From contig OY970170.1 in assembly GCA_963706795.1 (NCBI GenBank), forward strand, positions 570,001 through 602,000: 32,000 bases of DNA, in the 5' to 3' direction. Positions 1,243 to 30,791 of this stretch are shown piece by piece (position 1 is the first letter of the stretch; every line of letters starts with the position of its first letter). Below the pieces are notes generated by a model. The model was not told where the DNA came from and did not search any database. It saw only the letters and a program-made list of their open reading frames with translations. Source of the DNA: Candidatus Saccharimonadota bacterium. Its GTDB lineage: Bacteria; Patescibacteriota; Gracilibacteria; BD1-5; UBA2023. Both the position numbers and the translations under genes were made by a program.

Positions 1243-2043
1243 ATGTCATATCTCGGACTTTCATTTTTCTCAAAGAGTGAGTATATTACCATACCTCAGG
1301 ATAACTATCACATATATACAAAGCTCTTTAGTAACTGTTTTTGAGCTATTAAAGTGCCCGATGTACGAACTCGGGGATACGGTCAAGATAATTTCTTGAA
1401 CATTTGGCTAACGACTGGTCCAAGTCTTCCAATAAATAGGGAGGCTTGGGAGTGATTTATGGAACTTCTCGAGTGAGATCATTCAATAGTACCTTGATTT
1501 CAACTCAGAGATGCAGTCATGATTGGTCACATAGATTGGGAACACTATTTGGTGCTTGAATCGCCATTAAATATTGAACAAATAACAAAGAACCAGTCAT
1601 TCATAGAATTTGTTTATCTACCAAATAAACAAGCATCTAGCATTTGAGGTATTTTTGATTTGGCGCAAGACGATATCATGCGTGATATTATTCAGGGCAA
1701 ATACGGTGCTTTATTTCTTGGTTTAAAGTCCTATCCAATACCGAGCTTTACATGCCCATGCTGCGGATTTATAACCCTCCATGAGGATCATCATGTATAC
1801 GAAATATGTGAAGTCTGTGACTGGGAAGATGATCCAGTGCAATTTGAATTCCCTGATTCTCCATCTTGAGCTAATAAGTGATCCCTTCGACAGAATCAAA
1901 ATTCTTTTCTTTCCACCCAATTTTCCGATCAGGAAAACTATCTTGGTTATTTAAAGGACAAAAATTGGAAACCTCTTTCTCCAACTAGTGCACCGAAAGA
2001 TGGAGGAATATCTAGCGGATTAGATTATTTTAATGCTGCTTAG
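1243..2043 (+). CDS. Cysteine-rich CPCC-domain protein with a roughly 140-aa N-terminal extension.
   Basis: An 801-nt frame in AT-rich DNA has no TAA or TAG and seven in-frame TGA codons. The C-terminal part reads CPCCGFITL...YEICEVCDWEDDPVQ...SPS-G-ANK-G-SL, which matches the CPCC zinc-ribbon family pattern (CPCCG..T.....YEIC.VC.WEDD...GGAN..SL). Confidence 0.7.
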
Positions 2044-2083
2044 GACCCAATGAAGTTGCAAATGTTCACACTGACGGCACAAT

Positions 2084-2509
2084 ATGATCCTACTTTATCT
2101 TAGAGAAGAAGCCGATGGCACAATTTATTCAAGAAAACTTATAACTAATCTATCTATGAAACATGCTTGTCCCTGCTGTGGATTTCAAACAATAGATTCG
2201 TACTGAGACTACGATATTTGCGACGTATGTTTTTGGGAAGATGATCCTGCGCAGGCTGCACGCCCGTACTCACCATACTGAGCAAACTGAGAGTCCTTAG
2301 TTGATTATCATGTAGCGGCACTTGCTAATGTGCCTGAAAATATACTCACGTTTACAAAGTGAGGTGTTATCTTTCATCGTACTCAGAACTGGAAGTATAT
2401 ATTTGACTCATTCATTAAAAGTAGGTCAAACAGTGATTCAAACGACATGAACAGATATATACAAGATACTGAATTTATTTATAGTTTTGATGATATATCA
2501 AATGAATAG
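2084..2509 (+). CDS. Second cysteine-rich CPCC-domain protein.
   Basis: It reads MKHACPCCGFQTIDSY-G-DYDICDVCFWEDDPAQ...SPY-G-AN-G-ESL, with four in-frame TGA codons and stop TAG 2507-2509. The start is ATG 2084 or ATG 2156. Confidence 0.65.
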
Positions 2510-4128: not shown

Positions 4129-6543
4129 ATGCAGGAAGTCCTTCTCGTTCTCGCAGTTTTGCTCATCCTCTGAATTTTTGGTGGGGGCTTTGTATTTTTA
4201 CAAAAAAGACGCCGTTTTGACCACATGCTCGGCATGGTGTTTTTGCGTGTTCTCCTGCCACGCAAGGACAGCGATGCAGACGAAAAAAAGGAAACGAGTC
4301 GTGACTTTAAAGAGCAAGTGAGTCTCATGGAACAGCTCTTGTCATCACTTCGCTCCATCGGTCAGGGATCAATTTTTGCTCGTGCACTGGGTGGTAGATC
4401 CTTTTCGCTCGAGATCGTAGCAAATGAGCAGGAGATATTCTTTTATGTGGTCGTACCCAAAGAGATGCGACTCCTCTTCGAAAAGCAGATCACAGGATTT
4501 TATCCAGATGCGGTGATCGATGCGACTCCAGAGGTGAATATCTTTGAATGACGCAAGAGTGTCAAAGGTGTCGAACTTGTCCTTAAAAAGCCATATTTCG
4601 AGCCGATTAAGACCTATCAAAAGCTCGAGTCCGATCCTATGAATCCTCTCGTAGGTGCTTTAGGGAAGCTCTCTATGGGTGAATCCGCTGTAGTGCAAAT
4701 TCTTCTCCGACCGGTGGCAGATACGTGGCAATCAAAGTCATTTAAATACGAGTGAAAACTTGGTGGTGCACATTTTAGTTGGAATCCATTGGATATTCTC
4801 TCCAAATTTTTAAATGGCGTTGATGAAAAGTCTGCCGATCCAAAATCCGAAGGAGGCGATGAAAAAGCCAATACCCGCGAGCTCGTCAAAGAGAAGGCAA
4901 AAAAGAGCGGATTTGAAGCAACTCTGAGACTCATTGCGAGCGGTCAAAATGACATGATGACTGAGTCGATCGTATCTAATATTGCATCTGCGTTCTCCCA
5001 GTACAGTGCACCAGGATTTAATAGTATCAAGGTGTCAAAGCCTCACTATTTTGACGCATTTGTCCGAGATTATGTATTTAGAGCCTGTCATGGTGGATTT
5101 TTTGCGCACCATGATATTTTTTCGGTTGAGGAAATCGCTTCACTCTTCCATTTTCCACACTCAAAATACAACCGCTCGGCCGAGATCAAATGGCAGAATT
5201 TTAAGATCATGAAGGCACCAGTAAATATTCCAACTGAGGGGATATTGCTTGGGTATAACAACTTCCAGGGAAATACGCGGGAGATTCGCATCAAGAATGA
5301 GGATCGATTCCGGCACTTCTATGTTATTGGACAGACGGGTACGGGTAAGTCGTCGATTTTGCAGGTTATGGCGAGACAGGATATTAGTCTCGGACATGGG
5401 ATGTGTGTGATTGACCCGCATGGAGACCTTGCCATGGATCTCTTGCCATTTGTTCCACGAACACGTGCGGATGATGTCATCTATTTTGATCCGGCAGATG
5501 TCGCTCGACCGATGGGTATTAATATCCTCGAGGCTTCGACTGACGACGAAAAGCAGATGGTAGCACAGGACTCGCTCAATATCATGATTAAGCTCTTTGG
5601 TCCCGAGATATTTGGTCCGCGTATTCAGGACTATTTCCGTAATGGAGTACTGACACTTATGGATTACCCGGGTGGGTGTGCGCTTACGGATATCCTCCGA
5701 TTGTTTACGGATGATGAATTCCAAAAAGAACGCCGTCGAACGATTAAGGATCCGGTGGTGCGCGCTTGGTGGGACTTCACATTTGCAAAGATGGGAGATC
5801 GAGAAAAGGGTGAGATTATCCCATACTTTGCGGCGAAGTTCGGTGGATTTATTACGAACAAGCTGATGCGTAATATCATTGGTCAGACGAAGAGTTCCTT
5901 CGACATTTTGGACAGCATGCAAAGCTCAAAGATCCTCTTTGTAAATCTCTCAAAGGGAGTACTCGGAGACTTTAATTCGAATCTCTTGGGTCTGATCCTC
6001 GTATCTAAAATCCAGATGGCGGCCATGCGTCGCCAGACATTAGAAAAAGAGCTCCGCAAAGACTTCTTCCTCTATATCGACGAATTCCAGAACTATATCA
6101 CCGAATCGATCGAATCCATCCTCTCCGAAGCTCGTAAATATCGTCTCGGACTGATTGTAGCCCACCAGTATCTTGGTCAGCTCCAAAAGTCAGATTCACT
6201 CACGAAGTCCAATGTTAATCTTAAGGATGCGATCTTTGGTAACGTCGGATCTATGATGTCTTACAAGGTCGGACCAGAGGATTCTGAATTTCTCGAGAAG
6301 CAGTTCGCACCGGCATTCACCGGACGTGATCTCGTTAATATGGACAAATTTAAGGGCGTGATGAAGCTTGCGGTCGACGGACAGCCAACACCAGCATTTA
6401 GTATGACGCCCGTCAATCCATATCTCGAGCTCGGTGATAAAAAACTCGCAAAGGCCTTCAAGGAATTATCCAGACTCAAATACGGCCGCGAACGAGAGTT
6501 TGTTGAGAAGGAGATTAATTTCCGTATCGGGGCTTCGCAGTAG
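4129..6543 (+). CDS. Membrane-anchored FtsK/HerA-superfamily P-loop ATPase of VirB4/VirD4 (type IV secretion) type, paralog A.
   Basis: Three track fragments join in one frame through TGA 4171, 4549 and 4753. It has an N-terminal TM helix (VLLVLAVLLILGIFGGGFVFL), Walker A GQTGTGKSS, CVIDPHGDL, Walker B FFLYIDEFQNY and ARKYRLGLIVAHQY. It is collinear with the gene at 21573..24497. Confidence 0.8.
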
Positions 6544-6568: not shown

Positions 6569-7540
6569 ATGCGCGTTAAATCTCTCTTCGCTCTCGCTAC
6601 CTTTGGTGCGTTTTTGATGGTGCACGCGGACAATGTCGATATTGGTACCTATGACGCCTATAAAGACGAGGTCAAAAACTTCTGTGAAAGCAAGGACCGA
6701 CCATGGAATAGCAGCCAGGTGAGAGATACAAAAAATCCTCTTCTCAAATACAGCTCGATTATCTATCCCGATATCACGAATCCAAACTCGGATGCGCAGT
6801 TTACAGGACTACTGGATACGACAAAAGGGAGTAAAGAAGAACTCAATGCCATCCTCGATCTCCAGAGCAAATATATGCCTCTTGCGAGCGAAATCGAAAA
6901 ATCGTCCGCTATTTACAAAGAGCGAATGAACTCGATATATGCCTGTGCTGTGCTCAATACAAAGCTTCGTATTCATACAAAGCTCATGGATACGTTCAGG
7001 CCTACAGGATCAAATATCGTAAATCGATTGAAGCAATCATCTGATCAAATTACTCGTCGTATTGATGAGCTTCAGTGTCGAAATATTGCCAATGATGGCG
7101 GCGATGGAGCAGAGCTTTCGCTCAAAAAAGAAATCATCGGTCAAACGACCTACGAATACTGTAATTATCGCCACTATCTCTACTATGTAGATTATAGCGT
7201 GAAGCACCGCCTTGGAGATGTGCTCTCCACGATGAAAAAAAAGAAGGCACTCTTGAATGGTGCTACAGACGAATACGATCAATTTAAAACGACTGATTCT
7301 GTTGCGAAGGGGCTCGCGGAGGTGGCAACCAGAGCTGATAGCGAAATTGCGAGAACTCGAGATGTGTATAGTGCCGCATTTGATTCGTATACAGACTTTG
7401 AGCGTAACTATGCCTCACATGTTATCATGATCCTGATTGAGGATCGTTATGCGCTTTTGCGAGATTTTTTGAGAGAGACGATGAATCCTATCGGACAAGT
7501 TATCTACCTAGCATCCAATGCCACAAGCACAGGGAAGTAG
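6569..7540 (+). CDS. Secreted hypothetical protein.
   Basis: The 323-aa ORF is intact and starts 25 nt after the ATPase. It has a Sec-type signal peptide (MRVKSLFALATFGAFLMVHADN) and several Cys residues. I recognise no family. Confidence 0.6.
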   Translation: MRVKSLFALATFGAFLMVHADNVDIGTYDAYKDEVKNFCESKDRPWNSSQVRDTKNPLLKYSSIIYPDITNPNSDAQFTGLLDTTKGSKEELNAILDLQSKYMPLASEIEKSSAIYKERMNSIYACAVLNTKLRIHTKLMDTFRPTGSNIVNRLKQSSDQITRRIDELQCRNIANDGGDGAELSLKKEIIGQTTYEYCNYRHYLYYVDYSVKHRLGDVLSTMKKKKALLNGATDEYDQFKTTDSVAKGLAEVATRADSEIARTRDVYSAAFDSYTDFERNYASHVIMILIEDRYALLRDFLRETMNPIGQVIYLASNATSTGK

Positions 7541-8880: not shown

Positions 8881-9948
8881 CTATTGGAATACGGTAAAGT
8901 CGAGTGCTTCAGAAGTCGTAAGTTGTTGGATTTTTTTGATGCGAGTACGCTTAAATCCTGATCTATATCCTTCGGCCGAAACACTTGTGTACTGCGAAGG
9001 AATCAAAGTATTTAACTCGAGATTTTGATTGGTGATTGTATCGACTCCGTAGCCAAAAAACTGAATAGCCGACAGTCCGCCGATATTGTTTGCCACACGC
9101 CTAACTCGGTATTCGAGATAGGGAAGCACTTGTCCGGTTTCACTCTTCAAAACATTAGCGACCGTGAGCTTGAGCGTACATCCTGACGCAACACAATTAC
9201 CGAGCTCAGAACTATAGAGCGAATCCAGTGATCCTGTATTTCCGAGAACATTGTCGCGGGCAATCATGTTTTTAAGCTGCGGCGTGGGATCGGTGTTGAT
9301 GCGATTGATACTGCTCGCATCGTAGACTGCAGTGAGTCCAGTTGTACCAACAGAACTCATATTTGGCATGAGTGTGGTCTTGCCATCCGAAATCACCCAA
9401 AAGACGACTGGATAGAGTGTACTATTGGTAAAAAACCGAGTTGCGGGCGAATCAAGCGGCGTAAGAATATCAGTATTCGTCGCTGTTTTTGACTGAACTT
9501 TTGGCACTCGTAAATCGAGCTGAAATTCATTTAAAAACGTTGCCCCGTAATTCTTGGGAATAAAGAGCTGTACAGGAGCTCATGGACCTATTTGATTCCA
9601 GTTTTTGTCGTATTCGCTGTTACCCGTTCATGGGAGCGGTATAGCATTGGTGAGTTCAGAAATATTGTAACCACCTGTAGCGGTAGTCATACTTGTGGGT
9701 AGGGTATTCGCATTTTTGGGACCAGAAATGCTGTGTCCTGGATTGCGAAGATTGAGAGTAGCGAGGGCTTTTTCGATTTGGGCGGAGGCTTCGTAGTAGG
9801 CGATGGTGGAATTCTCGATACCGCGGACATTTCGAGAGAGAGGAACTATATGATCCAAGAGCCCGATCATCACGATGATGAGGGTTCCAGTGATGAATAT
9901 ACTCACTAAGAGAGCAGATCCTCGAGATTGTCGCGATAGATTTCTCAT
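8881..9948 (-). CDS. PilX-like minor pilin / pseudopilin-associated protein.
   Basis: ORFs 9628..9948 and 8881..9507 join through two TGA codons. The N-terminus (SRGSALLVSIFITGTLIIVMIGLL) resembles the PilX N-terminal segment. Its stop lies 1 nt before the rluD-like start. Confidence 0.5.
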
Positions 9949-9949
9949 G

Positions 9950-11449
9950 CTAATTATCGAGCGTTACGGTAGTGGCGATCGTGACTTCTGGATTTTGGAT
10001 TTTGAGTTTGCGGCGGCGTTCCCATCCAAATCCGAGTGTTGTCGTAAAACGTACATATCCTGCGATCGAATATCCAGGACTTACTTCTTTCCAAGAAAAG
10101 TGATAGTCCTTTGCAGGCACGGGGAAGAATTTGATATTTCGCACATCGACATCCGCATCGAACAGGCTTACCCATTCTGAGTCTTTGCCAGTGGGAAGAT
10201 TGCGGGTAATTGAACCAATGGTAATTGGAGTGCAATTAAAATCCGGATGACATTCCCATGTATCAACCTTACCATCAAAGAGACCTCCAGTATTGCTCGC
10301 AGTGATTCATTCGTGGGCGAAACCGGCGTCCTTTCAGACGAGACGGAGCATTTCGAGTCGACCGATACAGCCACTTCCGGTACCATTTTGGGTGTTGCAT
10401 CCATAGCCTGCTGGAGCATTTGGATCGAGTTCTACACGTCTACGAAGCAGGATTCGTTCGAGCCCGCGATCGGTTTTTTTAATGAGGTAGAGTTCGGAGA
10501 GTCCACTGCTTCCCGAAAAAGCTTCTGGACCCACTCCAAGGTCTTCGTCATCGTCATCTCCGGTGATATTGCCGTCACAATTGGCATCTCCGAGGTCTCA
10601 AGTCTTCCCTTTGGCAGTACAGACATTTATATCGTTGTTTTCGTCGCTGTTATAATCAAAGAATTGTGTCTTGTATTCGCCATATCTTTGCGGGCTGCCA
10701 ATCTCTACCGCTTGTGCATTATTAAAAGTGCTGATCGAAAAACATCCGTTAGTCCCCATATTGACGCCTACTCCGCTTCTGCAAAAATAGCTTCCAGATC
10801 CAAATTGCGAGGTACCGATTGAGCCGCCATTTCAGTAGTTTCCATAGCCTGTGGGATCGCGGTAGTGTCCACCTGAGAGAGTGAGTCCGACCATTGTGCG
10901 ATTAAAATATTCCTCATAGTCGATAGTTCCACCTTCCTTAATAGTCGTGGCGAGTTTTTCGCTCGCGGTATAGAGTTGTTCATTGATATCGATACGTCAT
11001 TCAACGAGATTGCGAGCTACACCTATATTGCCAAGGGCGGTAAATGCCATGACCATCAAAATGGCAAAAAGCGTAATCGACATGATCATTTCGATCAATG
11101 TGAAGGCCTTCGGCTTCTTGGTATTTTTGTGAATCTCAGAGGATTCAAACGAACTATTTTTCTTGAAGAAGAAGGAAAGAAATGATCCAATGCTGCGTCC
11201 TATACCAATACCGGTAGGGAATTTCCAAAATGTCTTTGGCCAGTCATGAACAAAGTAGTGAAGACTCTCAAGAAAATGACTTTTTCGGAGGAGTTTTCGT
11301 TCTTCTTTCGTGAAGGGTATAGTTACAATAAGCCAGAGACTATGAATGATCGCTTCGAAAAATCCGTAGACAATACGGAGGAGCGAAAAGAAAGAGTTTT
11401 GCTCGAGTGGATGGCGATTCATGCGGACATCTAACGACATTTGATGCAA
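9950..11449 (-). CDS. Large type IV pilin-like protein (pseudopilin) with an internal prepilin motif.
   Basis: One frame runs through five TGA codons to TAG 9950-9952. It carries HKNTKKPKA-FTLIEMIMSITLFAILMVMAFTAL, the class III signal / N-methylation motif with Glu5, followed by a Cys- and Asp-rich globular part (DANCDGNITGDDDDED). The start is uncertain: TTG 11449 or ATG 11440, with no canonical start near the motif. Confidence 0.7.
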
Positions 11450-11510
11450 AAGTCAATCCGCTCCTCGTTTACTATTTGAACAAATTCAGTATACCTTCGG
11501 CATTCCAATT

Positions 11511-12199: not shown

Positions 12200-13237
12200 A
12201 TGACAATGCTTCATAGTGAAGTTCAAAAGGGCTTCCTCGCGATTCTTGAGGGTGGTCTCACGGACAAGGAAAGATCCGTAATTGAACGACGTATCGAAGG
12301 AGAGACGTTGCAGTCGATCGGTGATAGTCACTCTATTACCCGCGAACGAGTTCGTCAGATCGAAGATGTTGCCATCAGAAAGGTTGGTCGCATGGTGAAG
12401 TCGTCCAATCTTCTCTCGATCCAATCTTCTGGTGAAAAGATGCTCGCCCTTCATGGTGGACTTCTCACAAAGGACAAGCTTCTCTCTGCAGTTATCAACG
12501 ACCTTGCGATCACTGGTCCAGTCAATGAGGCAATTATTGCCATCGTTCTCCAGTCAGATTTCAATATCCAGAAGTCAAAGCCTCAGCTCGGAACACACAC
12601 GTATTTCACACTTCCTGAGGTAAACAAGAAGGCGATCGTTGAGATCCATAAAGAAGCCATCAAGATCCTCAAGAAGCGCGGAGATATCATGGAAAATACC
12701 GTGCTCCACGAGATGATCAAGATCAATCTCTTCGCACAATTTGGCAAGATTGATACGGTGCTCATCGACTCTGCGCTCGATGTCTTCATGGATATCGTAA
12801 AGGGAGAAGAGCGATTTGTAGGACTCGAAAAATGGAAGATCCTCAATCCTTCAACCCTCAAGGACAAGGCAATCTACATTCTCAAGAAAAAGAAAGAAGC
12901 TATGCATTTTGTGGATATTACTAATGCCATTGCTGACCACTTCAAGGAGTCTGTAAAGGTGGCAACGATCCACAATGAGCTCATTCGTAATAACGAATTT
13001 GTACTCATCGGACGCGGAATCTACGTTCTCAAAGAATGGGGATACCGACCAGGAACGGTGCTCGATGTTATCATGGATATCTTCCAAAAGGCAAAGTCGT
13101 CTCTCTCGACTGAGGATATCATCTCTCGCGTTCTCAAGGTTCGCCAGGTGAAGACGAGTACAATCTACATGAATCTCCAAAATCGTCAGTACATCGAACG
13201 TGTCGGACGAAATATGTATCAGATCAAAGCACGATAG
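12200..13237 (+). CDS. DNA-binding protein with an N-terminal sigma-70 region-4-like HTH and a C-terminal HARE-HTH-like winged helix.
   Basis: The 345-aa ORF is intact. The N-terminal part is LTDKERSVIERRIEGETLQSIGDSHSITRERVRQIEDVAIRKV. The C-terminal part is MHFVDITNAIADHF...EFVLIGRGIYVLKEWGY. Confidence 0.65.
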   Translation: MTMLHSEVQKGFLAILEGGLTDKERSVIERRIEGETLQSIGDSHSITRERVRQIEDVAIRKVGRMVKSSNLLSIQSSGEKMLALHGGLLTKDKLLSAVINDLAITGPVNEAIIAIVLQSDFNIQKSKPQLGTHTYFTLPEVNKKAIVEIHKEAIKILKKRGDIMENTVLHEMIKINLFAQFGKIDTVLIDSALDVFMDIVKGEERFVGLEKWKILNPSTLKDKAIYILKKKKEAMHFVDITNAIADHFKESVKVATIHNELIRNNEFVLIGRGIYVLKEWGYRPGTVLDVIMDIFQKAKSSLSTEDIISRVLKVRQVKTSTIYMNLQNRQYIERVGRNMYQIKAR

Positions 13238-19926: not shown

Positions 19927-21434
19927 TTACTTCTCCCCTCTATATGACAGCGCTTCTGCGACATGTGCAAGGGTGATTTCATCGGCGTCTTCGAGATCGG
20001 CAATGGTTCGGGCTACGCGGATAAGCCGGTAGTAACTGCGCATGGAGAGTGAGAGTCTCGCGACGGCGTCTTTGAGCATCTTCATGCCGTCGGGGCGGAT
20101 GTAGCAGAGTTTTTCGACTTCTTTGGGGGTGATTTCACTATTACATTCCTTGGCAAGACCAAGGAATCGCTTTCGCGCCTTTTGACGAGCAGCATTGACG
20201 CGGATCTGGAGTTCTTCGTGGTTGCTGGTGTGCGGGTGCTTTCGATTTCTTCGACTTTAAGTCTGGGAACATTGACGAAGAGATCGATGCGATCAAGAAT
20301 AGGTCCAGAGAGTTTGGCGCGGTATTTTTCGATATCACGTTCACTGCATGAGCAGGGTTTTTCGGGATCTCAGAGATAACCACAGGGGCATGGATTCATG
20401 GCTCCGATGAGGAGGAATTTTGCCGGATAGGTAAAACTTGCATGGACTCGCGTGACCGTGATTGTGCCATCTTCGAGTGGCTGTCTGAGCATTTCGAGGA
20501 GGTGTCCATCAAACTCGAGGAATTCATCCAAAAAGAGTACTCCGCGGTGCGCGAGACTGACTTCTCAGGGGCGAGATTTGGTTCCGCCGCCAATAATACT
20601 TACTCCGCTTGCCGTATGATGTATTTTGCGGAATGGACGAGTTTCAATAAGTGGAGTTTTGCGGTCCAGAAGTCCTGCGACGGAATAGATCTTTGATACG
20701 TCCAAAATCTCATCAAAGCTCATCTCCGGAAGAATCCCTTCGAGTGCTTTTGCAAGCATAGTTTTGCCCGATCCTGGTGGCCCCTCAAGGAGAATATTAT
20801 GTCCTCCAGCTGCGGCGATAAGGAGCGCTCTTTTTGCTCGATCTTGCCCACGAATGGATGCAAAGTCTACTTCGGGAATGGAACGTTCTTTTGGTTTGTG
20901 AGGGGTGGGGGTAGTGAGTTCACCGGTCTTTTGGATGTATTCGACAACCTCGTTAAGGCTTTCGGCTCAGAGCACGCTGATCCCTGGGACGAGCGATGCT
21001 TCGTCGAGATTTCATTTGGGAATAACCACACAGGATGCGCCGTGAGATTTTGCAAATAGGATCGCTGGAAGTACTCATGCAATCTCTCTAATTTTGCCAT
21101 CGAGTGCGAGTTCTCATAAAAAATATGTCGTAGCGAGATCGCGTTCGCTTACGATATTTTCACCCAGCAAAATCCCGAGAGCGATGGGGAGATCAAAAGA
21201 AGGTCCGGATTTGCGAGTGTCTGCGGGTGCGAGATTTACCGTGATTCGCTTTGATGGAAAACTATACCCAGAATTCTTTATAGCACTGCGAACGCGCTCA
21301 CGACTTTCTTGTACAGCAGCATCACCGAGTCCAACAATTGAAAAAGCGGGAATACCCGTTGCGATATCCACTTCTACGTCTACTCGTTGTCCCGACAAAC
21401 CCTGAATGGCAATAGAACCGATCAATTGCATCAT
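19927..21434 (-). CDS. comM: ComM/YifB Mg-chelatase-like AAA+ ATPase with an apparent frameshift (possible pseudogene or assembly error).
   Basis: The N-terminal part is [41 protein letters not shown]. It has Walker [13 protein letters not shown] and [17 protein letters not shown]. The conserved C-terminus ([13 protein letters not shown]...[32 protein letters not shown]) lies in the -1 frame from about 20256 down to TAA 19927-19929. Confidence 0.8.
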
Positions 21435-21572: not shown

Positions 21573-24497
21573 ATGTTCTTCGAACTCATTGCTACTGCCC
21601 ATGCGGCAGGTATTGCTGGTGCAGGAAAAACTGCCGGTAATGCTCCCCAAAAAACTACACAAGCTACTGCATCAGGTGGTACCGACTTTGTGGATATTCT
21701 CATGAATGTCCTTTCGGTGATCTTTAATGTCGTCTTGCTCCTCATTCTTTTGTTTCTCCTGCTCAAGCTGATACGCGTGATGTATGAGATCTACAATGCT
21801 CGACGCCTTGTCTATATGCGCGTCACACTTCCACGTGCGGACTCCAAGCTCGACAAAGAGAAGGAAACCAAAAAAGACTTCAAAGAAAAGATGGGAATCA
21901 TGTCCATTTTTTATAAGTCGATCCACAAAGTTTCAAATATCACTTTTTGGGATTCACTCAAGGATTTTATATTTGATCATGCGAAAGTTTCGCTCGAGCT
22001 TATCTATTCGGATGGTCAGCTTTCGTTTTATATCGTGACTTATCGCGATTACGCGAGCCTGATTACACAGCAGATTACTTCTAACTATCCGGATGCGGAG
22101 GTATGTATTATTAAGGCTTCGCAATTTCCTGATATCAAGCCTGCGGGCTTCACGCTCCGAGCAGCTTCGATTGGAAAAGTAAATGATGATATTTTCCCGC
22201 TTAAGACCTACAAATATTTTGAAGACGATCCACTCTCGACGCTTACTAACAATTTTGGTTCGCTTAAAAAGACGGACAAGGCAGCATTCCAAATTGTTGT
22301 AAAACCGCGTGGTTCTTCTTGGAATAAAAAAGCCAAAAATGCTGCCGGAATGGTAGCAAAAGGACAATACAAGAAGGGCTCCAAGGACAGTTTTGTATGG
22401 GAGGCGATCAAGATGCTTTTTGCACCGATCGTTTGGATATTTGATATGTTCACGAATACGCCAGGCGATGGTTCGACTGCGGCTCCAGGTGCGGCTTCTG
22501 GTGACTCGTACAAGATCTTTAATCAGGCAGAACAAGAATCCCACAAGGCTGTCGGTGAATCCGCAGGTCAGCCAGGATATCAGGCTTCGCTGCGACTTCT
22601 GGTCTCGTCCGATGACTCGATGAGTGCAAAAAATGCGCTCGAAAGTCTCGTCGGCGCTATGTCGATGTTTACTGACGAATACAACAACAAGCTCGATAAT
22701 CCTCAGATCGAAGACGCACTGGCATTCTTTTTTGCTCCGATCCGCTACTTTGCGTATAGATTCCGAATGATTGGGTTTTTGCAGGCAAAGAGCGTGTTTT
22801 CGGTTGATGAACTTTCGACGATTTACCACTTTCCAGACATTAACTACAACAAGTCGCCGATCCTGAAGTGGCTCGAATACAAGATGATCGCTCCACCACA
22901 CAATCTCAAAGTACTCAAAGATAAGCTCGTTCTCTCAGATTACCGACGCGATGCAACTGGAAATGTCCTCACCGAAGATCCTACCGTTGTCCTTGCTGTA
23001 GACGAAAACAAGATTTTAAAACGCGATGAAGGTCGCAATTTTGTGAGTACCACCGGCGAGATTGTGCCAATCCATCAGGATGGTCCTGATAAGGGGAAGG
23101 CGATTGATCCGACTAAAAATCCAATTGCCGAAGAAAAGCATCGTCATCTCGGTGGCTTCCCACTCTATACCGATGGAGTGCTCATGGGATGGAATGAATA
23201 CCGCAATACCAAAACTCCGATTTATTTCTCTCGTAAGGACCGAGGACGTCACCATTACGTCATTGGTAAATCAGGAGGAGGTAAGTCAGTATTCCTCTCA
23301 TACCTTGCTCGCCAGGATCTCTGGAATGGCGATGGACTCTGTGTGATTGATCCGCATGGCGATCTCGTAGAAGATATCATTGCGTATGCTCCAAAAGAGC
23401 GTGCCAAGGATATCATCATCTTTAATCCTGCCGACTACGAGCGCCCAATGGGACTTAATATGCTCGAGGTTATCTCGACGGATCCTGCCCTCCGTGCTGT
23501 CGAAAAAGACCGTGCCGCCCTCGATGCGACATCGATATTCATCAAGATCTTTAATGAAGAAGTCTTCGGACCACGAATCCAGCACTATTTCCGAAATGGA
23601 TGTCTCACTCTCATGGATGACGAAGACGAAGGAGGAACACTCATCGACGTACCACGTCTCTTTGTCGATGATGCCTTTATGAAATACAAAGTCTCCAAGG
23701 TTAAAAATCCAGTCGTAAAGGCCTTCTGGGAACATGAATACGCCAATACAGGAGATCGTGAAAAACAAGAAATGATCCCGTATTTTAGCTCGAAGTTCGG
23801 ACCATTCATTACAAATACAACCATCCGTAATATTATCGGTCAGCCAAAGTCGGCCTTTAATCTCAGATCCGTAATGGATGACCGTAAAGTGCTCATGGTC
23901 AATCTCTCAAAGGGTATGATCGGTGATCTCAACGCTCAGCTTCTCGGTCTGATCTTTGTCTCAAAGATCAATATGGCAGCGATGTCTCGTGCCGATATTC
24001 CAGAGGATCAGCGAAAGGATTTCTTCCTCTATGTCGACGAATTCCAGAACTTCGCGACCGATACTTTCGGCGAAATCCTCTCCGAAGCCCGCAAGTACCA
24101 CCTCGCCCTCATCATGGCGCACCAGTACATCGCACAGATTGGCTCAGCGAAGGGTAAATCCGACAAGCCATCGATCAAAGATGCTGTATTCGGGAATGCC
24201 GGAACTATCATGAGTTTTAAGGTGGGTGCCGAAGATGCCGAATACCTCGAAAAGGAATATGCTCCACTGCTCTCACAGCAGGACATTATTGGTATCGCCA
24301 ATTACACAACCTACTGCAAACTCAATATCGACAATGCGACGACTCGTCCATTCGATATGAAGACCATCTGGGATAACAGTTACAAAAACCCAGAAGTTGC
24401 CAAGATCATCAAAGAATATTCTCGAAAAATGTATGGGCGCAAAAAGGAATACGTCGACATGGAGATCGAGGCACGTCTTGGAATTATGCCGAGTTAA
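21573..24497 (+). CDS. Membrane-anchored VirB4/VirD4-like P-loop ATPase, paralog B.
   Basis: The 974-aa ORF is intact and has no in-frame TGA. It has a TM helix (VLSVIFNVVLLLILLFLLLKLI), Walker A GKSGGGKSV, CVIDPHGDL, FFLYVDEFQNF and ARKYHLALIMAHQY. It shares with paralog A the N-terminal block (Y/F)(M/L)RVxLPRxDSxxDxxKETxKDFKE and the FSV(D/E)ExxxxxHFP block. Confidence 0.85.
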   Translation: MFFELIATAHAAGIAGAGKTAGNAPQKTTQATASGGTDFVDILMNVLSVIFNVVLLLILLFLLLKLIRVMYEIYNARRLVYMRVTLPRADSKLDKEKETKKDFKEKMGIMSIFYKSIHKVSNITFWDSLKDFIFDHAKVSLELIYSDGQLSFYIVTYRDYASLITQQITSNYPDAEVCIIKASQFPDIKPAGFTLRAASIGKVNDDIFPLKTYKYFEDDPLSTLTNNFGSLKKTDKAAFQIVVKPRGSSWNKKAKNAAGMVAKGQYKKGSKDSFVWEAIKMLFAPIVWIFDMFTNTPGDGSTAAPGAASGDSYKIFNQAEQESHKAVGESAGQPGYQASLRLLVSSDDSMSAKNALESLVGAMSMFTDEYNNKLDNPQIEDALAFFFAPIRYFAYRFRMIGFLQAKSVFSVDELSTIYHFPDINYNKSPILKWLEYKMIAPPHNLKVLKDKLVLSDYRRDATGNVLTEDPTVVLAVDENKILKRDEGRNFVSTTGEIVPIHQDGPDKGKAIDPTKNPIAEEKHRHLGGFPLYTDGVLMGWNEYRNTKTPIYFSRKDRGRHHYVIGKSGGGKSVFLSYLARQDLWNGDGLCVIDPHGDLVEDIIAYAPKERAKDIIIFNPADYERPMGLNMLEVISTDPALRAVEKDRAALDATSIFIKIFNEEVFGPRIQHYFRNGCLTLMDDEDEGGTLIDVPRLFVDDAFMKYKVSKVKNPVVKAFWEHEYANTGDREKQEMIPYFSSKFGPFITNTTIRNIIGQPKSAFNLRSVMDDRKVLMVNLSKGMIGDLNAQLLGLIFVSKINMAAMSRADIPEDQRKDFFLYVDEFQNFATDTFGEILSEARKYHLALIMAHQYIAQIGSAKGKSDKPSIKDAVFGNAGTIMSFKVGAEDAEYLEKEYAPLLSQQDIIGIANYTTYCKLNIDNATTRPFDMKTIWDNSYKNPEVAKIIKEYSRKMYGRKKEYVDMEIEARLGIMPS

Positions 24498-24526
24498 TAC
24501 GGATTAATGCTATGTTGCCATTTATG

Positions 24527-24562
24527 AATCCCGCGCTACAATGTGCGGGATTTTCTTTTTTC
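24527..24562 (+). terminator. Intrinsic terminator or attenuator between the ATPase and the pilin-like gene.
   Basis: Stem AATCCCGC / GCGGGATT has a 10-nt loop and is followed by TTTTCTTTTTT. It ends 6 nt before ATG 24568. Confidence 0.6.
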
Positions 24563-24567
24563 TTCTC

Positions 24568-25581
24568 ATGAATCGCCTCCTTTCTCGAGTACTTGCGACG
24601 TTGATGCTGACTTTTGCATTTGGTGGAATAGCTTTGCCAGTCTTTGCGGACACGGTATTTACACCGACGAGCAGTCGTGAAGAGCTCGACTTCCAAAATG
24701 GTCGCCGAGAATGAAATGCCCGCGAGAGCTATGCGGATACTGATTTTATATCCTCGATTGAATGATCTTTTGGATCTACTTTTGGAAATACATTCTCATA
24801 TTTTAGAGCGAGTAGCACTGGAGAGCGAGGCGCATATGCACTGTTTATAAATATCGCAAGGGATGCTAAAAACCTCTTTGTATTTGTCGCGATTCTTTAT
24901 TTGGTTATCTCAGTCCTCCGCATGCTGTTTTCGGGTGGATCGGACGAAGACATCAAAAAATGGCGCAATACGATACTTTGGACGACGATCGGTATCATCG
25001 TCATGCAGGCAGCCTTTGTCTTTGTAGATACGCTCTATAACAAGAATGTAAACGGATTTACGTCGATGCTCTTCCTCGACAAAATGGTCTATCCATTTGT
25101 CCATTTACTCGAGATATTGGCATCATTTGGATTTCTCGCAATGGCGTTCTTTGCATTCTTCCGCATTGTTACAGCTGGAGGTGACGAAGAAATGGTCAAA
25201 AAAGGAAAACAAACCATCATTTCTGCGCTCATTGGATTTATTATTATGAAGCTCCCTGCGGTCCTCGTTAAGAGCATCTACGGAGAAGCAAAGTGTGATG
25301 CACCACTGCTCTTTAGCATCTGTCGTATTAAAGATCCAAATCTCTCAGGCGCGATCAGCGTGATGACGAGTATCATAAATTACATTAATGGATTTCTCGC
25401 GATTGTTATCGTTGTGCTCGTCCTCTATGCAGGATGGCTCGTCCTCAGCTCTGGCGGCGACGATGAGAAAATTAAACAAGCAAAAAAGATCCTTCTCTAT
25501 ATCGTTATTGGAGTTGTGCTCTTGGTGTCGAGCTATATTTTGTTTAACTTCTTTGTACTGAAAGACGTGTCTGCCAGTTAG
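24568..25581 (+). CDS. Secreted or membrane protein with three tandem VirB2/TrbC-like T4SS pilin hairpins.
   Basis: ATG 24568 joins ORF 24901..25581 through two TGA codons. It has a signal peptide (MNRLLSRVLATLMLTFAFGGIALPVFA). A TM, polar loop, TM unit occurs three times: LFSGGSDEDIKKWRNTILWTTIGIIVM, IVTAGGDEEMVKKGKQTIISALIGFIIM and VLSSGGDDEKIKQAKKILLYIVIGVVLL. Confidence 0.7.
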
Positions 25582-25594
25582 ATTCACCAAAAAT

Positions 25595-25625
25595 AAAAGA
25601 CCTCGCTGTGAGGTCTTTTATTTTG
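25595..25625 (+). terminator. Intrinsic terminator.
   Basis: Stem AAAAGACCTC / GAGGTCTTTT has a 5-nt loop and a T-rich tail. Confidence 0.7.
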
Positions 25626-27613: not shown

Positions 27614-28834
27614 ATGTCCAAACACATAATTCCCGTTACGGTTCTCTCAGGCTTTTTGTGAGCAGGTAAGACAACTCTGCTTACGCATATTCTCCATAAT
27701 CGCGATGGATATAAGGTGGCACTCATCGTGAACGATATGAGTGAAATCAATATCGATGCAAAGATGGTCAAAAATGATATTGAGCTTTCTCGTACAGAGG
27801 AAACTCTCGTCGAAATGACAAATGGATGCATTTGCTGCACGCTTCGATGAGATCTTTTAAATGAGGTAAAGCGCATCACACAAAATGGTGAATATGATGC
27901 CATTATCATCGAATCTACCGGTATTGCCGAGCCTGTTCCTATCGCTCAAACATTTAGCTATGTAGACGAAGAAACCGGCATTGATCTCTCACAATACGCA
28001 CGACTTGATACTATGGTGACAGTTGTGGATGCTCTTAATTTTTTGGAGGATTTCTCAAGTGAGCAAAATCTCGAAGATCGTGGACTCAGTGCTACAGAAG
28101 ACGACCACCGAAATATTGTCGATCTGCTGGTTGAACAGATTGAATTTTGTGATGTTCTCGTTGTTAACAAAATCGATTCGCTCGACGAAGATCAAAAAAC
28201 AATCCTCAGAAAGATTCTCAAATGACTCCAGCCGACTGCGAAATATATCGAAACGAACCATGGCCGTGTCGAATTCACTGACATCGTTGATACCGGACTC
28301 TTCGACTTCGAAAAAGCAGAATCCAGCCCGCTCTGGCGTAAAGAACTCGAAGAAGGTGGTCATCATACTCATGCTCCAGAATCAGAATCCTATGGCATCA
28401 CTTCATTTGTATACCGTCGTAACAAGCCGTTCCATCCAGAACGATTTTTAGAAGTTGCCAATGGCGATTGGCCTGGAGTAATCCGCTCAAAGGGTGTATT
28501 CTGGCTTGCTTCTCGCAATGATATTGCTGGAAGTTGGGGGCAGGCAGGTTGATCAGTTCGAGTGGATCCTGCTGGCCGCTGGGCAGCAAGTTTCACACAC
28601 GAAGAACTCGAATGATATCCTGATATCATTGCTGAACTCGAGGATTTTGCAGCTGAGCCTTACGGAGATCGACGCCAAGAACTCGTTGTTATCTCGATCA
28701 ACGAAAATAAAACATATATGGAACAACTCCTCGATAGTGCGCTCCTTACTGACGAGGAATTCGCCCAAGGACCCGAAGTATGGGCAACCTACCAAGATAA
28801 TTGGCCAGAATGGCTCAGAGAAGAGAATGAGTAA
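27614..28834 (+). CDS. COG0523 (CobW/YjiA/ZigA-type) metal-chaperone GTPase.
   Basis: It has P-loop GFL-G-AGKTT, metal motif [15 protein letters not shown] and the His-rich stretch GGHHTHAPE. Five in-frame TGA codons are read as Gly. Confidence 0.85.
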
Positions 28835-28867
28835 AAATACAACCATCTGACCCCGTAAATCTCACTT

Positions 28868-29836
28868 ATGAAACCACCTATTTCGATCACTATTCTTACC
28901 GGCTTTCTCTGAGCTGGTAAGACCACACTCCTCAATCACATAGTCCGAAATGCCAATGGCCGTAAACTCGCCATCGTCGAGAATGAATTTGGCGAAGAAG
29001 GCGTCGACGGCGATCTCATCGAGCGCTCAGACGAGGAAGTAGTCGAGATCAATAATGGTTGTATCTGCTGTGTCGTCCGCAAGGATTTTATTTCGGCGAT
29101 TGACCGACTTCTTAATTCAGGTCGCCAGATTGACCATATTATCATTGAGGCTTCTGGAATGTCTGAGCCACTTCCTATTGCACAGAGTTTTCTCATGCAG
29201 GATATGGAAGGTCGCGTAAAGCTGGATTCGATTATCTGTCTCATTGATGCTGAGAATTTTGAGGCGAAAGTGCTCACTGATATCAAAACTACGCTCGAAC
29301 AGATCGAATTTGCAGATTTCGTCGTCATCAACAAGGCCGACCTCGCCGAACCAAGCCGTATCGAAGAAATCAAAGAAATTATCCGCCGCGTCAATTACTA
29401 TGCAACCATTGTTGAAGCGGTAAAAGGGGAGGTCGATATGCGGTATCTGCTCGATTCTGGTAGATTTGAACTCACTGACGAGATCGAAGAAGAGCTCAAA
29501 ATACAGGGGACACAGGGGCATACACATAATTCGGATATCACGCAATTTCTCTATAAGTCTGAGAAGCCATTCATCGCTGACGAGCTCAAGTGATTTATTG
29601 ATTCACTCGATAATGACGTATTTCGCGCGAAGGGTTTTGTGCAGATTGCGGGTCATGGGCGATTTATTCTCCAACGTACTGGTGCACGCATGACGATGGT
29701 GCCTGACACCAAAGAAGACCGAAAAGATGGCAATATGAGTAAGCTCGTCTTCATCTGAAAAAATATGGATGAAATGGCCATGCGTAAAGCCCTCGATGAG
29801 GCCACCGATGCACCAAATGTGATGTTTGCGAAGTAA
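28868..29836 (+). CDS. Second COG0523-family GTPase.
   Basis: It has GFL-G-AGKTT, GCICCVVR, INKAD, GTQGHTHNSD and LVFI-G-KNMD. Three in-frame TGA codons are read as Gly. Confidence 0.85.
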
Positions 29837-29852
29837 TGATTAAAAGGTCTTT

Positions 29853-30008
29853 AGAAAGAGGGGATATTTGATTTCTGGAGTGCAGCGAGGACTGTGCGAG
29901 CAAAGGCTCAAGAGTCAGTTCATTCACTAAACACACCCAAACAAGCTCTCCATAACGAAAGGTCCGCGAGTTCCACAGCAAACGAAGAAACAAGTATTCC
30001 CTCTTTCT
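29853..30008. other. 156-nt element closed by a long helix: a candidate structured RNA or a small inverted-repeat element.
   Basis: AGAAAGAGGGGATA (29853-29866) pairs with TATTCCCTCTTTCT (29995-30008), 13 Watson-Crick pairs plus one G-U. The helix is extended by TTGATTTCT / AGAAACAA. Internal hairpins include GAGC-AAAG-GCTC. Confidence 0.45.
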
Positions 30009-30083
30009 ACGAAGGAAGTCTCATAGATAAAGAGAATATCCCATCCCATTTGCCAAATCCTCGCTTTCTATAAAATACCCCTC

Positions 30084-30791
30084 ATGATCTTCATTTCTCT
30101 CGTACTCGTCCTTCTTGCAAGCCTGACAGGTCTCTTGCTCGCACGGACAAAATTTATCGAATCCCTCTCCCTTGAGCTCATCGCTCTTGGCGCTGGTGCG
30201 ATGACGAGTGTGGCGCTGGTACATATTTATCCTGAGGCTATCGCGACAAATCCCCATGCGGTCTATACATTTTTGCTCGGATTTCTCGTAGTCTATGTGC
30301 TCGAAAATGCCAGTATTGTACATCCATGTGTTGAGGATCATTGCCACTTTCATTCGCTTTCACTCTGGTCATTTAGTGGACTCATCGTCCATACGCTCTT
30401 TGATGGAGTAGGAATTTGGGCCTGATTTTCGTCTGGTGTCGAGCTGGGAATGCTCGTAACACTGGGTGTTTTAGTGCATCAGATTCCAGTTTCACTCTCG
30501 CTTGCAGGCCTCGCAAAGCGAGCACATTTCGACGCAAAGAAACGTAAATTACTCTTCGCTTTTTTTGCTCTTGCGGCTCCAATTTGAGCACTTCTTGCGC
30601 TTTTTGCTCTGAATGGTCTCTCGCCTGAGTTGCTTGCATATCCGCTCGCATTTGCAGGAGGAAGTCTGCTCTATATCGGTGCCTCTGATCTCTTGCCGCT
30701 CGTACACAAAGACTCCCATAAACATCTTGCACTTATAAGTATGTTTATCCTCGGAATGGCGCTTTCGGTTATTGCTAAGTTTTTTGAATAG
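30084..30791 (+). CDS. zupT: ZIP-family (ZupT-like) divalent metal transporter.
   Basis: It reads HTLFDGVGIWA-G-F, LVHQIPVSLSLAG and GGSLLYIGASDLLP. It has two in-frame TGA codons and about seven or eight hydrophobic helices. Confidence 0.8.

What the first reader, a model, noticed from the sequence alone, without database searches (positions are those of the whole stretch)
24568..25581. Single polypeptide carrying three tandem VirB2/TrbC-like pilin hairpins
After a Sec signal peptide, the 337-aa protein repeats one unit three times. The unit is a hydrophobic helix, then a [ST]xGG(S)D(D/E)(D/E)xxKxxK loop, then a hydrophobic helix. The loop motifs lie at nt 24931-24951, 25171-25191 and 25447-25467.

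The third copy (YAGWLVLSSGGDDEKIKQAKKILLYIVIGVVLLVSSYILFNFF) closely follows the C-terminal pattern I know from Gram-positive and CPR T4SS pilins (..TSxGDxxxxxxAKxxILYxxIGLxxxxxxxxIxxF). Those proteins normally contain one such hairpin.

A covalently triplicated pilin could be a precursor cut into three subunits, or a pre-assembled pilus base. I am not aware of either being described.
Basis: partly seen in the sequence, partly recalled or inferred. Interest (0 to 1): 0.7.

Follow-up and report, generated by a model that had tools for sequence, protein, structure and literature searches.

The report
Three fused VirB2-like pilin hairpins
A Gracilibacteria (CPR) gene, readable only if TGA codes for glycine, makes one exported membrane protein from three diverged copies of the small "T4SS pilin" helical hairpin that other ultrasmall bacteria encode as separate tandem genes; this fused form is the rule in its lineage but I found no paper that discusses it.

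Summary
ORF 24568-25581 (+) encodes 337 aa: a Sec-type signal peptide, then three tandem hairpins. Each matches Pfam T4SS_pilin (PF18895; 63 bits against a cutoff of 26.6, three stretches), and internal similarity has z = 9-13 against shuffles. The genome uses code 25 (TGA = Gly), and public table-11 gene calls truncate the protein to 192 aa.

The triplication is not unique to this gene. All full-length homologs (about 46 clusters, Gracilibacteria) have exactly three units with position-specific conservation. A unit profile finds about 52,900 representative proteins, and among the top 150 copy number runs from 2 to 16 per polypeptide. Other Patescibacteria carry arrays of single-hairpin genes, which is the only form described in the papers I found.

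The gene is chromosomal and syntenic, and almost always adjacent to a TraG/VirD4-like (T4CP-like) ATPase. Linkers of conserved length, a conserved extracytoplasmic Cys pair and the lack of conserved cleavage motifs favour an intact 6-TM single-chain "heterotrimer" over a cleaved precursor. Whether it polymerises into a pilus is untested.

Verdict: a new variant of a known kind (a fused pilin array), of moderate interest.

The parts
24568..25581 (+). Gene for the 337-aa triple-hairpin T4SS_pilin protein (code 25; TAG stop at 25579-25581)
   Evidence: The start at 24568 is preferred over the ATG at 24541, which lies inside the upstream hairpin, and homologs begin at the equivalent Met.
24568..24648 (+). 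Sec-type signal peptide, aa 1-27 (MNRLLSRVLATLMLTFAFGGIALPVFA | D)
   Evidence: Sequence inspection. A helix at aa 2-19 in the AF2 model of homolog P0001. The conserved ...FA|[DE] pattern in homologs.
24712..24714 (+). In-frame TGA (aa 49) read as Gly
   Evidence: Gly in P0001, P0002, P0004, P0005, P0008 and P0012 at this column; W in P0003, as expected if its source read a TGA with code 4.
24763..24765 (+). In-frame TGA (aa 66) read as Gly
   Evidence: Gly in P0001, P0002 and P0004 at this column.
24832..25047 (+). Hairpin unit 1 (aa 89-160); loop SGGSDEDIKKWR at 24931-24951
25048..25071 (+). Linker 1 (aa 161-168), fixed length in 29 of 32 homologs, predicted extracytoplasmic
25072..25287 (+). 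Hairpin unit 2 (aa 169-240); loop TAGGDEEMVKKGK at 25171-25191
25288..25350 (+). Linker 2 (aa 241-261) with a conserved Cys pair (C243 at 25294-25296, C252 at 25321-25323), modelled as a beta-hairpin
   Evidence: Cys present in 28 and 29 of 32 homologs; strands at residues 241-254 of the P0001 model; coordinates.
25351..25563 (+). Hairpin unit 3 (aa 262-332), the most canonical copy; loop SSGGDDEKIKQAKK at 25447-25467
   Evidence: Single-unit AF2 model with pLDDT 85.7, helices 2-33 and 38-69.
21573..24497 (+). 974-aa membrane-anchored TraG/VirD4-like (T4CP-like) P-loop ATPase, the conserved upstream partner
   Evidence: Pfam T4SS-DNA_transf, TrwB_AAD_bind, DUF87 and TraG-D_C. The nearest solved structure is TrwB, P-loop region only. 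Synteny across loci.
24526..24553 (+). Terminator-like hairpin plus T-run between the ATPase and pilin genes; overlapping promoter-like match TTGCCA-16-TACAAT at 24515-24542
   Evidence: dG -18.7 kcal/mol, z = -5.0. Function is inferred only.
25590..25624 (+). Terminator-like hairpin downstream of the pilin gene
   Evidence: dG -18.7 kcal/mol, z = -6.5.
4129..6543 (+). Paralogous 804-aa T4CP-like ATPase; its orthologs lie immediately downstream of the triple pilin gene in most other Gracilibacteria loci
6569..7540 (+). 323-aa secreted protein with no family match; conserved partner of the 804-type ATPase

Best explanation
The gene encodes a Sec-exported polytopic membrane protein built from three diverged copies of the two-helix T4SS_pilin (PF18895) hairpin. 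It is the Gracilibacteria-typical fused version of the arrays of separate VirB2-like pilin genes found in other Patescibacteria.

Shown: three hairpin domains sit in one ORF. The architecture is conserved, with position-specific sequence identity. The gene has conserved chromosomal adjacency to T4CP-like ATPases. TGA codes for Gly.

Inferred: after signal-peptide cleavage the chain stays intact with the N-terminus outside. The three acidic/basic GG-D/E-x-KK turns face the cytoplasm, and the two linkers (one disulfide-stapled) face outside, giving six membrane-spanning helices. This single-chain 'heterotrimer' is the fixed 1:1:1 building block that oligomerises into the pilus-like conduit of a chromosomal, non-conjugative T4SS-derived apparatus. 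The neighbouring TraG/VirD4-like ATPase(s) power or dock onto that apparatus, which is used for interaction with a host cell.
For: Domain identity: PF18895 scores 63.4 bits against a cutoff of 26.6, in three stretches; 26 of 27 isolated units hit PF18895; NCBIfam NF045849, a Mycoplasma ICE pilin-like protein, scores 50.3 against 40.

Repeat significance: z = 9-13 against shuffles.

Conservation: every full-length homolog has three units, and 74 three-unit ORFs occur across Gracilibacteria loci. Units are orthologous by position, with about 100 bits on the cognate unit against about 30 on the others.

Structure: AF2 gives three long helical hairpins at pLDDT of about 80, and a single unit at pLDDT 85.7.

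Intact chain and topology: linker 1 has a fixed length in 29 of 32 homologs. Both linkers show about 0.5 mean column identity. The Cys pair is conserved in 28-29 of 32. K+R are enriched at the hairpin turns. There is no consistently conserved small-x-small motif at the unit boundaries. The 6-8-unit relatives have Gly/Ser/Thr-rich spacers without a common cleavage motif.

Partner: a T4CP-like ATPase lies next to the triple gene in nearly all loci, in a conserved order bounded by comM on one side and rpmE/rlmH on the other.

Literature: arrays of 2-11 separate VirB2-like genes are reported in Patescibacteria, and a six-gene array is essential in Ca. Southlakia epibionticum; most of these T4SS clusters lack a relaxase (PMC12102498, PMC12857230).
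Against: No experiment shows a pilus in any Patescibacterium (PMC12857230). The link to VirB2/TrbC is sub-threshold by sequence and undetectable by Foldseek or by PDB sequence search. No VirB4, VirB3, VirB6 or VirB8 gene is in the window. The ATPase partner is the T4CP type, and the literature suggests this type may have been exapted for other roles. The relative packing of the hairpins is uncertain (pTM 0.49). Absence of a recognisable cleavage motif does not exclude processing by an unknown protease. The signal peptide and the topology are inferred, not predicted with dedicated tools.
Confidence: 0.45

Rival explanations
1. Membrane-resident channel or platform. The six-helix protein never leaves the membrane. 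It oligomerises into the translocon or docking platform for the T4CP-like ATPases, doing the job of a polytopic VirB6-like subunit. 'Pilin' is then a misnomer.
For: VirB6 homologues are reported as absent in Gracilibacteria (PMC12102498). The above-cutoff NCBIfam match is to a Mycoplasma ICE component, and the conjugation systems of Gram-positive bacteria are described as lacking VirB2 pilins. The gene is tightly linked to one or two membrane-anchored T4CP-like ATPases rather than to VirB4. Position-specific conservation of three different hairpins suggests a defined hetero-complex. Related giant proteins use a single hairpin as an N-terminal membrane module.
Against: There is no sequence similarity to VirB6/TrbL. 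The helices are 31-40 residues long, more than a bilayer needs and typical of extractable pilins (established knowledge of the F and T pilins). Reviews treat the family as candidate pilins.
Confidence: 0.3
2. Polyprotein precursor. The chain is cut at the two linkers, by signal peptidase or another protease, into three separate mature pilins made in strict 1:1:1 ratio.
For: Each second helix has the same N-in/C-out orientation as a signal peptide, so cleavage after it is topologically possible (inference). In this window, linker 2 begins with YGEA|K, which fits the small-x-small rule. Other Patescibacteria use separate pilin genes.
Against: The small-x-small pattern is not conserved across homologs: GKV, GSV and GTV also occur. 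Linker 1 has no such motif. The linkers are conserved in length and sequence, and linker 2 carries a conserved Cys pair modelled as a structured beta-hairpin. Recently duplicated 6-7-unit relatives have flexible Gly/Ser/Thr spacers rather than a repeated processing site.
Confidence: 0.15
3. A generic small-helix membrane protein unrelated to type IV secretion. The repeats would be low-complexity hydrophobic helices and the Pfam name would be misleading.
For: Foldseek and PDB searches return only generic helical hairpins. Weak hits to many unrelated transmembrane families appear at high E-values.
Against: The loop motif and many helix positions are conserved. The PF18895 and NF045849 matches are above their cutoffs. 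TrbC is consistently the second-best family (10 of 27 units). Adjacency to T4CP-like ATPases is conserved in about 50 loci.
Confidence: 0.05

Closest known systems
Patescibacterial VirB2-like pilin arrays (Pfam T4SS_pilin PF18895): for example the six-gene essential array of Ca. Southlakia epibionticum ML1 and the 'Sec secreted array' of Ca. Nanosynbacter lyticus TM7x (PMC12102498, PMC12857230)
   Same: The same Pfam family. The same unit of signal peptide plus two-helix hairpin with a GG-D/E-K-rich turn. Several sequence-divergent paralogs side by side (13-25% identity between units here; an average of 25% within published arrays). Chromosomal, without a relaxase nearby.
   Different: Here the paralogs are fused into one reading frame with a single signal peptide and conserved linkers. 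The gene is adjacent to T4CP-like ATPases, not virB4. The copy number is fixed at three across the lineage.
VirB2/TrbC/TraA conjugative pilins of diderm T4SSs (Pfam PF04956)
   Same: A small hydrophobic helix-loop-helix after a signal peptide. Sub-threshold TrbC hits cover the same hairpin region.
   Different: The Pfam cutoff is not reached. No structural match was recovered. Known members have one hairpin per polypeptide, and some are cyclised (established knowledge). No VirB5, VirB6 or other core-complex genes are present here.
Mbov_0395 family pilin-like conjugal transfer protein of Mycoplasma ICEs (NCBIfam NF045849)
   Same: The score is above the model's cutoff (50.3 against 40). A monoderm host. 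A hairpin module of about 80 aa.
   Different: That family is a single hairpin encoded on an integrative conjugative element. This one is a triple hairpin in a conserved chromosomal core locus with no ICE features.
Archaeal Ced/Ted DNA-import systems (a VirB2-like CedA1 pilin with a VirB4/HerA-like ATPase; named from my own knowledge and mentioned)
   Same: A minimal pairing of a membrane-anchored conjugation-type ATPase with VirB2-like hairpin proteins, used for something other than plasmid conjugation.
   Different: No sequence relationship was tested here. Those hairpins are separate small proteins.

Membership tests
Pfam T4SS_pilin (PF18895) | HMM score above the gathering threshold | tested here: met
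   63.4 bits against 26.6, in three stretches. 26 of 27 isolated units match, best E = 8e-12.
Pfam T4SS_pilin (PF18895) | Two hydrophobic helices joined by a short charged turn, preceded by a signal peptide | tested here: met
   Hydropathy segments. AF2 hairpins. The signal peptide is inferred by inspection and conservation only.
Pfam T4SS_pilin (PF18895) | One hairpin per polypeptide (the form described in the literature) | tested here: not met
   Three units per chain here and in all full-length homologs. 2-16 units occur elsewhere.
TrbC/VirB2 pilin (PF04956) | HMM score above the gathering threshold (27.9 bits) | tested here: not met
   19.1 bits for the whole protein and 20.5 bits for unit 3. 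10 of 27 units give sub-threshold hits.
TrbC/VirB2 pilin (PF04956) | Fold match to solved T4SS pilins (TraA, VirB2) | tested here: inconclusive
   Foldseek with the whole chain and with a single unit gave only non-significant generic helical hairpins (best E = 0.84 and 1.8). A two-helix hairpin is too simple for this test to discriminate.
TrbC/VirB2 pilin (PF04956) | Polymerises into an extracellular pilus with bound phospholipid | not testable with these tools
   This needs filament isolation, cryo-EM or cryo-ET. Reviews state that a pilus in Patescibacteria is only a possibility.
Patescibacterial T4SS pilin array (Quinonero-Coronel et al. 2025) | [quoted passage not shown] | tested here: not met
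   The window has one pilin gene with three domains. Related loci have 3+3+1 or 3+1 gene arrays.
Patescibacterial T4SS pilin array (Quinonero-Coronel et al. 2025) | Located near virB4 and other MPF-FATA components | tested here: not met
   The scanned neighbours of the gene are a T4CP-like ATPase, ComM and a response regulator, with an L31-like ORF (by sequence) and tRNAs beyond. No VirB4, VirB3 or VirB6 was detected among the window genes scanned. The rest of the genome was not available.
NCBIfam NF045849 (Mbov_0395 pilin-like conjugal transfer protein) | Score above the curated cutoff | tested here: met
   50.3 bits against 40, in two stretches; the best covers aa 264-329.
NCBIfam NF045849 (Mbov_0395 pilin-like conjugal transfer protein) | Encoded on an integrative conjugative element | tested here: not met
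   The chromosomal order comM - ATPase - pilin - rpmE - rlmH is conserved across many MAGs. No relaxase or integrase was seen among the window genes scanned.
Genetic code 25 (Gracilibacteria/Absconditabacteria) | TGA occupies conserved Gly positions, not Trp positions and not stops | tested here: met
   Two P-loops of the form GFLxAGKTTLL. Gly in homologs at both TGA sites of this gene. 37% Gly at 238 TGA positions in the family, with Trp outside the top eight residues. Homologs translated by their sources with code 4 carry W in the GG motif. No tRNA with anticodon UCA lies in the window, so the decoding tRNA was not seen.

The most novel reading that the evidence does not exclude
Concatenation of VirB2-like hairpins into one chain is a general and so far undiscussed way of building T4SS-type filaments or conduits. 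The Gracilibacteria protein would be a natural single-chain heterotrimeric pilin whose three non-equivalent hairpins occupy defined neighbouring positions in the polymer. Chains of 2 to 16 hairpins in other bacteria and in Altiarchaeales archaea would be further cases of the same principle.
Probability: 0.3. Interest if true: 0.7.

Novelty: new variant of a known kind. Interest (0 to 1): 0.5.

Why it matters
Patescibacterial T4SS pilin arrays are essential for the epibiotic lifestyle in the one system tested. It is not known what they assemble into, or why so many divergent paralogs are needed. A lineage in which three paralogs are welded together in a fixed order, with each position conserved separately, argues that the paralogs are non-redundant parts of one hetero-oligomeric structure rather than antigenic variants. 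It also gives structural biologists a stoichiometrically defined object to model or purify. It would be the first T4SS pilin-type subunit known to be multi-domain, which constrains models of how such subunits are extracted from the membrane and polymerised. On the practical side, standard-code gene calling truncates these proteins: the public entry from this genome has 192 of 337 aa, so surveys of Gracilibacteria secretion systems under-report them.

Tried and rejected
1. Standard-code translation breaks the ORF at two TGA codons. It was rejected in favour of code 25 after the P-loop, homolog and column-spectrum tests. Code 4 (TGA = Trp) was rejected because Trp is rare at those columns.

3. 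Foldseek of the whole chain and of a single unit against the PDB gave no significant or specific hits. A PDB sequence search with the unit profile also gave nothing. The fold is too simple for these tests.

4. I looked for conserved signal-peptidase-like motifs at the unit boundaries and found none conserved.

5. The idea that the fusion is an artefact of reading through TGA stops between tandem genes was rejected. The three units lie in one table-11 ORF, and several orthologs have no TGA at all in the gene (L002, L007, L008, L009, L018).

6. ATG 24541 was rejected as the start codon. It lies inside the terminator-like hairpin, and homologs start at the equivalent of 24568.

7. Cluster look-ups for the 5-16-unit proteins gave a taxon name for only one cluster. 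The look-up of encoding contigs returned only a 2.3-kb contig, not the 1.27-Mb one, so the rest of this genome (VirB4 and other T4SS genes) could not be inspected.

8. The supplementary tables of PMC12102498 list one row per protein, so they neither show nor exclude that the authors saw multi-domain pilins.

Full report
**Observation.** Read with the standard bacterial code, the frame 24568-25581 (+) is interrupted by two TGA codons, at 24712-24714 and 24763-24765. TGA is frequent in every frame of the window. Long ORFs that tile the window appear only when TGA is treated as a sense codon.

TGA occupies the invariant Gly of the P-loop GFLxAGKTTLL in two CobW-like genes (27614-28834 and 28868-29836). 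Both TGA positions of the target gene align with Gly in the closest homologs. Across 74 three-unit relatives, the alignment columns that hold a TGA are 37% Gly in the other sequences, followed by Ala and Ser, and Trp is not among the eight commonest residues there. Homologs whose sources translated them with code 4 carry W inside the otherwise invariant GG motif.

The window therefore comes from a code-25 organism, a Gracilibacteria-type member of the Patescibacteria/CPR. The homologs that carry a name are labelled Candidatus Gracilibacteria, Peribacteria or Patescibacteria. The public protein from the same genome (P0007, 100% identical, on a 1.27-Mb contig) has only 192 aa because it was called with the standard code.

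**The repeat is real.**
- Pfam T4SS_pilin (PF18895) matches the protein at 63.4 bits against a gathering cutoff of 26.6, in three separate stretches.
- The three units score 72-85 against each other in local alignment, while shuffled controls average 25-30 (z = 9-13; 0 of 1000 shuffles reach the observed score).
- The loop motifs lie exactly at the coordinates given.
- All three units lie in one stop-free standard-code ORF (24766-25581), and several orthologs contain no TGA at all. The fusion is therefore not produced by reading through stops.

**Anatomy.** The N-terminus (MNRLLSR, hydrophobic core, VFA|D) looks like a Sec signal peptide, and the ...FA|[D/E] pattern recurs in homologs. This rests on inspection, not on a predictor.

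An AlphaFold2 model of the 68%-identical homolog P0001, built on a 32-sequence alignment, has mean pLDDT 69.7 and pTM 0.49. It shows:
- a signal helix;
- a low-confidence, largely unstructured N-terminal region;
- three long helical hairpins at pLDDT of about 80 (helices 86-121/126-156, 163-202/207-238 and 259-294/299-330);
- a short beta-hairpin in the second linker.

A single unit modelled on its own is a confident hairpin (pLDDT 85.7).

Four family-wide signals bear on topology. The second linker carries a Cys pair present in 28-29 of 32 homologs. The first linker has the same length in 29 of 32. Both linkers are moderately conserved. Basic residues concentrate just after each GG-D/E turn.

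With a cleaved signal peptide, this gives an N-out, C-out, six-helix topology. The three charged turns would face the cytoplasm, and the linkers, one probably disulfide-stapled, would face outside. This topology is an inference.

**Distribution.** The word-indexed search found 46 clusters, and all full-length members (300-350 aa) have exactly three units. Shorter entries are N-terminal truncations.

The units are orthologous by position. Against the window's unit 3, the unit 3s of other species are 28-70% identical and units 1 and 2 are 13-25%. Position-specific HMMs give about 100 bits on the cognate unit against about 30 on the others. So the triplication predates the divergence of these lineages and each position has been kept distinct. 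Free-standing single-hairpin pilins of Saccharibacteria, Uhrbacteria and Magasanikbacteria score best against unit 3.

In 79 loci from reference genomes I counted 74 ORFs with three units, 63 with one and 5 with two. Gracilibacteria often have 3+3+1 or 3+1 gene arrays. Other CPR classes have runs of six or seven single-unit genes.

An exhaustive HMM search with the unit profile found 52,902 representative proteins at E of 0.001 or better. The 150 best all had two or more units: mostly three, but also 4-8, 10, 11 and up to 16 in one chain. These are uninterrupted sequences, and one such cluster is from an Altiarchaeales archaeon. From score scaling I infer that most of the approximately 48,000 weaker hits are single-unit proteins. 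Multi-unit chains would then be a small minority family-wide but the rule in this lineage.

**Context.** The gene follows a 974-aa, membrane-anchored P-loop ATPase (21573-24497). That protein matches T4SS-DNA_transf, TrwB_AAD_bind, DUF87 and TraG-D_C, and its only solved relative is the coupling protein TrwB. A paralog (4129-6543), followed by a secreted protein of unknown family (6569-7540), lies 17 kb upstream.

Across loci the pairing is conserved:
- In the window's closest relatives the order is prepilin(-), sigma-like, ComM(-), ATPase-974, triple pilin, L31(-), RlmH.
- In most other Gracilibacteria it is (third ATPase), triple pilin, ATPase-804, g6569-like, L31(-), RlmH.

This is a vertically inherited chromosomal core locus, not a mobile element. 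No VirB4, VirB3, VirB6 or relaxase gene was detected among the window genes scanned.

Strong hairpins flank the pilin gene: 24526-24553 with a T-run, and 25590-25624 (z = -5.0 and -6.5). A promoter-like match overlaps the first hairpin. The pilin may therefore be transcribed separately from the ATPase, but this is only a pattern match.

**What is known.** Quinonero-Coronel et al. 2025 (PMC12102498) searched 3,035 Patescibacteria genomes with PF18895 and VirB2 profiles. They report 441 arrays of 2-11 separate pilin genes with an average identity of 25%. They find abundant T4CP homologs mostly far from virB4, VirB6 apparently absent in Gracilibacteria, and a relaxase absent from most T4SS clusters. 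Their tables list one row per protein.

The 2025 FEMS review (PMC12857230) calls the six-gene essential pilin array of Ca. Southlakia epibionticum remarkable and says that a pilus is only a possibility. None of the papers retrieved mentions fused multi-hairpin pilins. NCBI already names one homolog 'pilin'. The protein also passes the cutoff of NF045849, a pilin-like conjugal transfer protein of Mycoplasma ICEs. The TrbC/VirB2 Pfam model is consistently the second-best family but stays below its cutoff. Fold and PDB sequence searches are uninformative.

**Interpretation.** The best-supported reading is a fused pilin array. Three non-redundant VirB2-like hairpins are kept in one chain as a fixed 1:1:1 building block, working with the adjacent T4CP-like ATPase(s) in a chromosomal T4SS-derived apparatus. 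I favour an intact chain over a cleaved precursor for four reasons:
- the linkers are conserved in length and sequence;
- one linker holds a conserved Cys pair in a modelled beta-hairpin;
- no cleavage motif is conserved;
- recently duplicated multi-unit relatives have flexible Gly/Ser/Thr spacers rather than a repeated processing site.

Whether the building block polymerises into an extracellular filament or stays in the membrane as a channel or platform cannot be decided here. I lean slightly to the filament or conduit, because the helices are longer than a bilayer requires and because of the family relationship. The membrane-resident alternative is serious, given the reported absence of VirB6 in Gracilibacteria and the Mycoplasma ICE match.

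**Verdict.** The architecture appears to be undiscussed in the literature I could search. I class it as a new variant of a known kind, with moderate interest (0.5).

Noticed in passing
whole window; e.g. 27614-28834, 28868-29836, 24712-24714, 24763-24765: The window uses genetic code 25 (TGA = Gly). Standard-code gene calls fragment most genes. The public protein P0007 from the same genome is a 192-aa truncation of the 337-aa pilin.
   Followed up: yes
window 4129-6543 (+) and 6569-7540 (+): A second T4CP-like ATPase (804 aa) is followed by a 323-aa secreted protein with no Pfam or NCBIfam match. In most Gracilibacteria loci this pair lies immediately downstream of the triple pilin gene, but here it is 17 kb away.
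   Followed up: partly
L052 8798-13615; L057 3312-7784; L064 1653-6206; also L056, L060, L071, L076, L078: Giant ORFs of 1400-1800 aa carry one T4SS_pilin hairpin near the N-terminus (about aa 70-150), followed by a very large, presumably extracellular region. Three of them lie directly after a pair of triple-pilin genes. They could be pilin-anchored adhesins.
   Followed up: no
proteins P0067, P0080, P0091, P0159; P0159's cluster includes MCK4491598.1: Chains of 9-16 concatenated hairpins with Cys-flanked units. One cluster is annotated Candidatus Altiarchaeales archaeon, so hairpin concatenation extends to archaea.
   Followed up: partly
proteins P0047, P0048, P0049: Concatenates of 6-8 units whose units are near-identical, indicating recent tandem duplication. 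They have Gly/Ser/Thr-rich spacers. The taxon is unknown.
   Followed up: partly
proteins P0073, P0105: Gracilibacteria-type triple hairpins preceded by an extra N-terminal extracellular domain of about 340 aa, including a Pro/Thr/Ser-rich spacer.
   Followed up: no
window 24515-24565: A strong terminator-like hairpin with a T-run lies between the ATPase stop and the pilin start, and a promoter-like TTGCCA-16-TACAAT overlaps it. There is no obvious Shine-Dalgarno sequence before ATG 24568.
   Followed up: partly
window 9950-11503 (-) and 8881-9948 (-): A large protein with a prepilin N-terminal methylation motif (type IV pilus or pseudopilin class) and an adjacent 355-aa protein with no family match. 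Together with a sigma-like gene (12200-13237) and comM, they are syntenic with the ATPase-pilin pair in related MAGs.
   Followed up: partly
window 20013-21434 (-): A ComM/Mg-chelatase-like gene diverges from the ATPase. No Mg_chelatase_C domain was detected and the last 80 or so residues look unlike ComM, so there may be a frameshift or a degenerate C-terminus.
   Followed up: no
window 27614-30791 (+): Two tandem CobW/GTPase-type metallochaperone paralogs are followed by a membrane protein that looks like a ZIP-family transporter (by sequence only, not scanned). This may be a zinc-homeostasis cluster.
   Followed up: no
window 1243-2043 (+) and 2033-2509 (+): Two adjacent proteins with a Cys-rich CPCC motif. 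The first matches PF14206; the second is judged by sequence only. Each has 6-7 in-frame TGA codons.
   Followed up: no
L028, L030, L039, L042, L045-L047: In these Gracilibacteria/Peribacteria loci the triple gene is followed by a second, highly divergent triple gene, and in all but L046 then by a single-hairpin gene (3+3+1). Many MAGs also hold a separate 3+1 locus. The window shows only the first gene of this set.
   Followed up: partly
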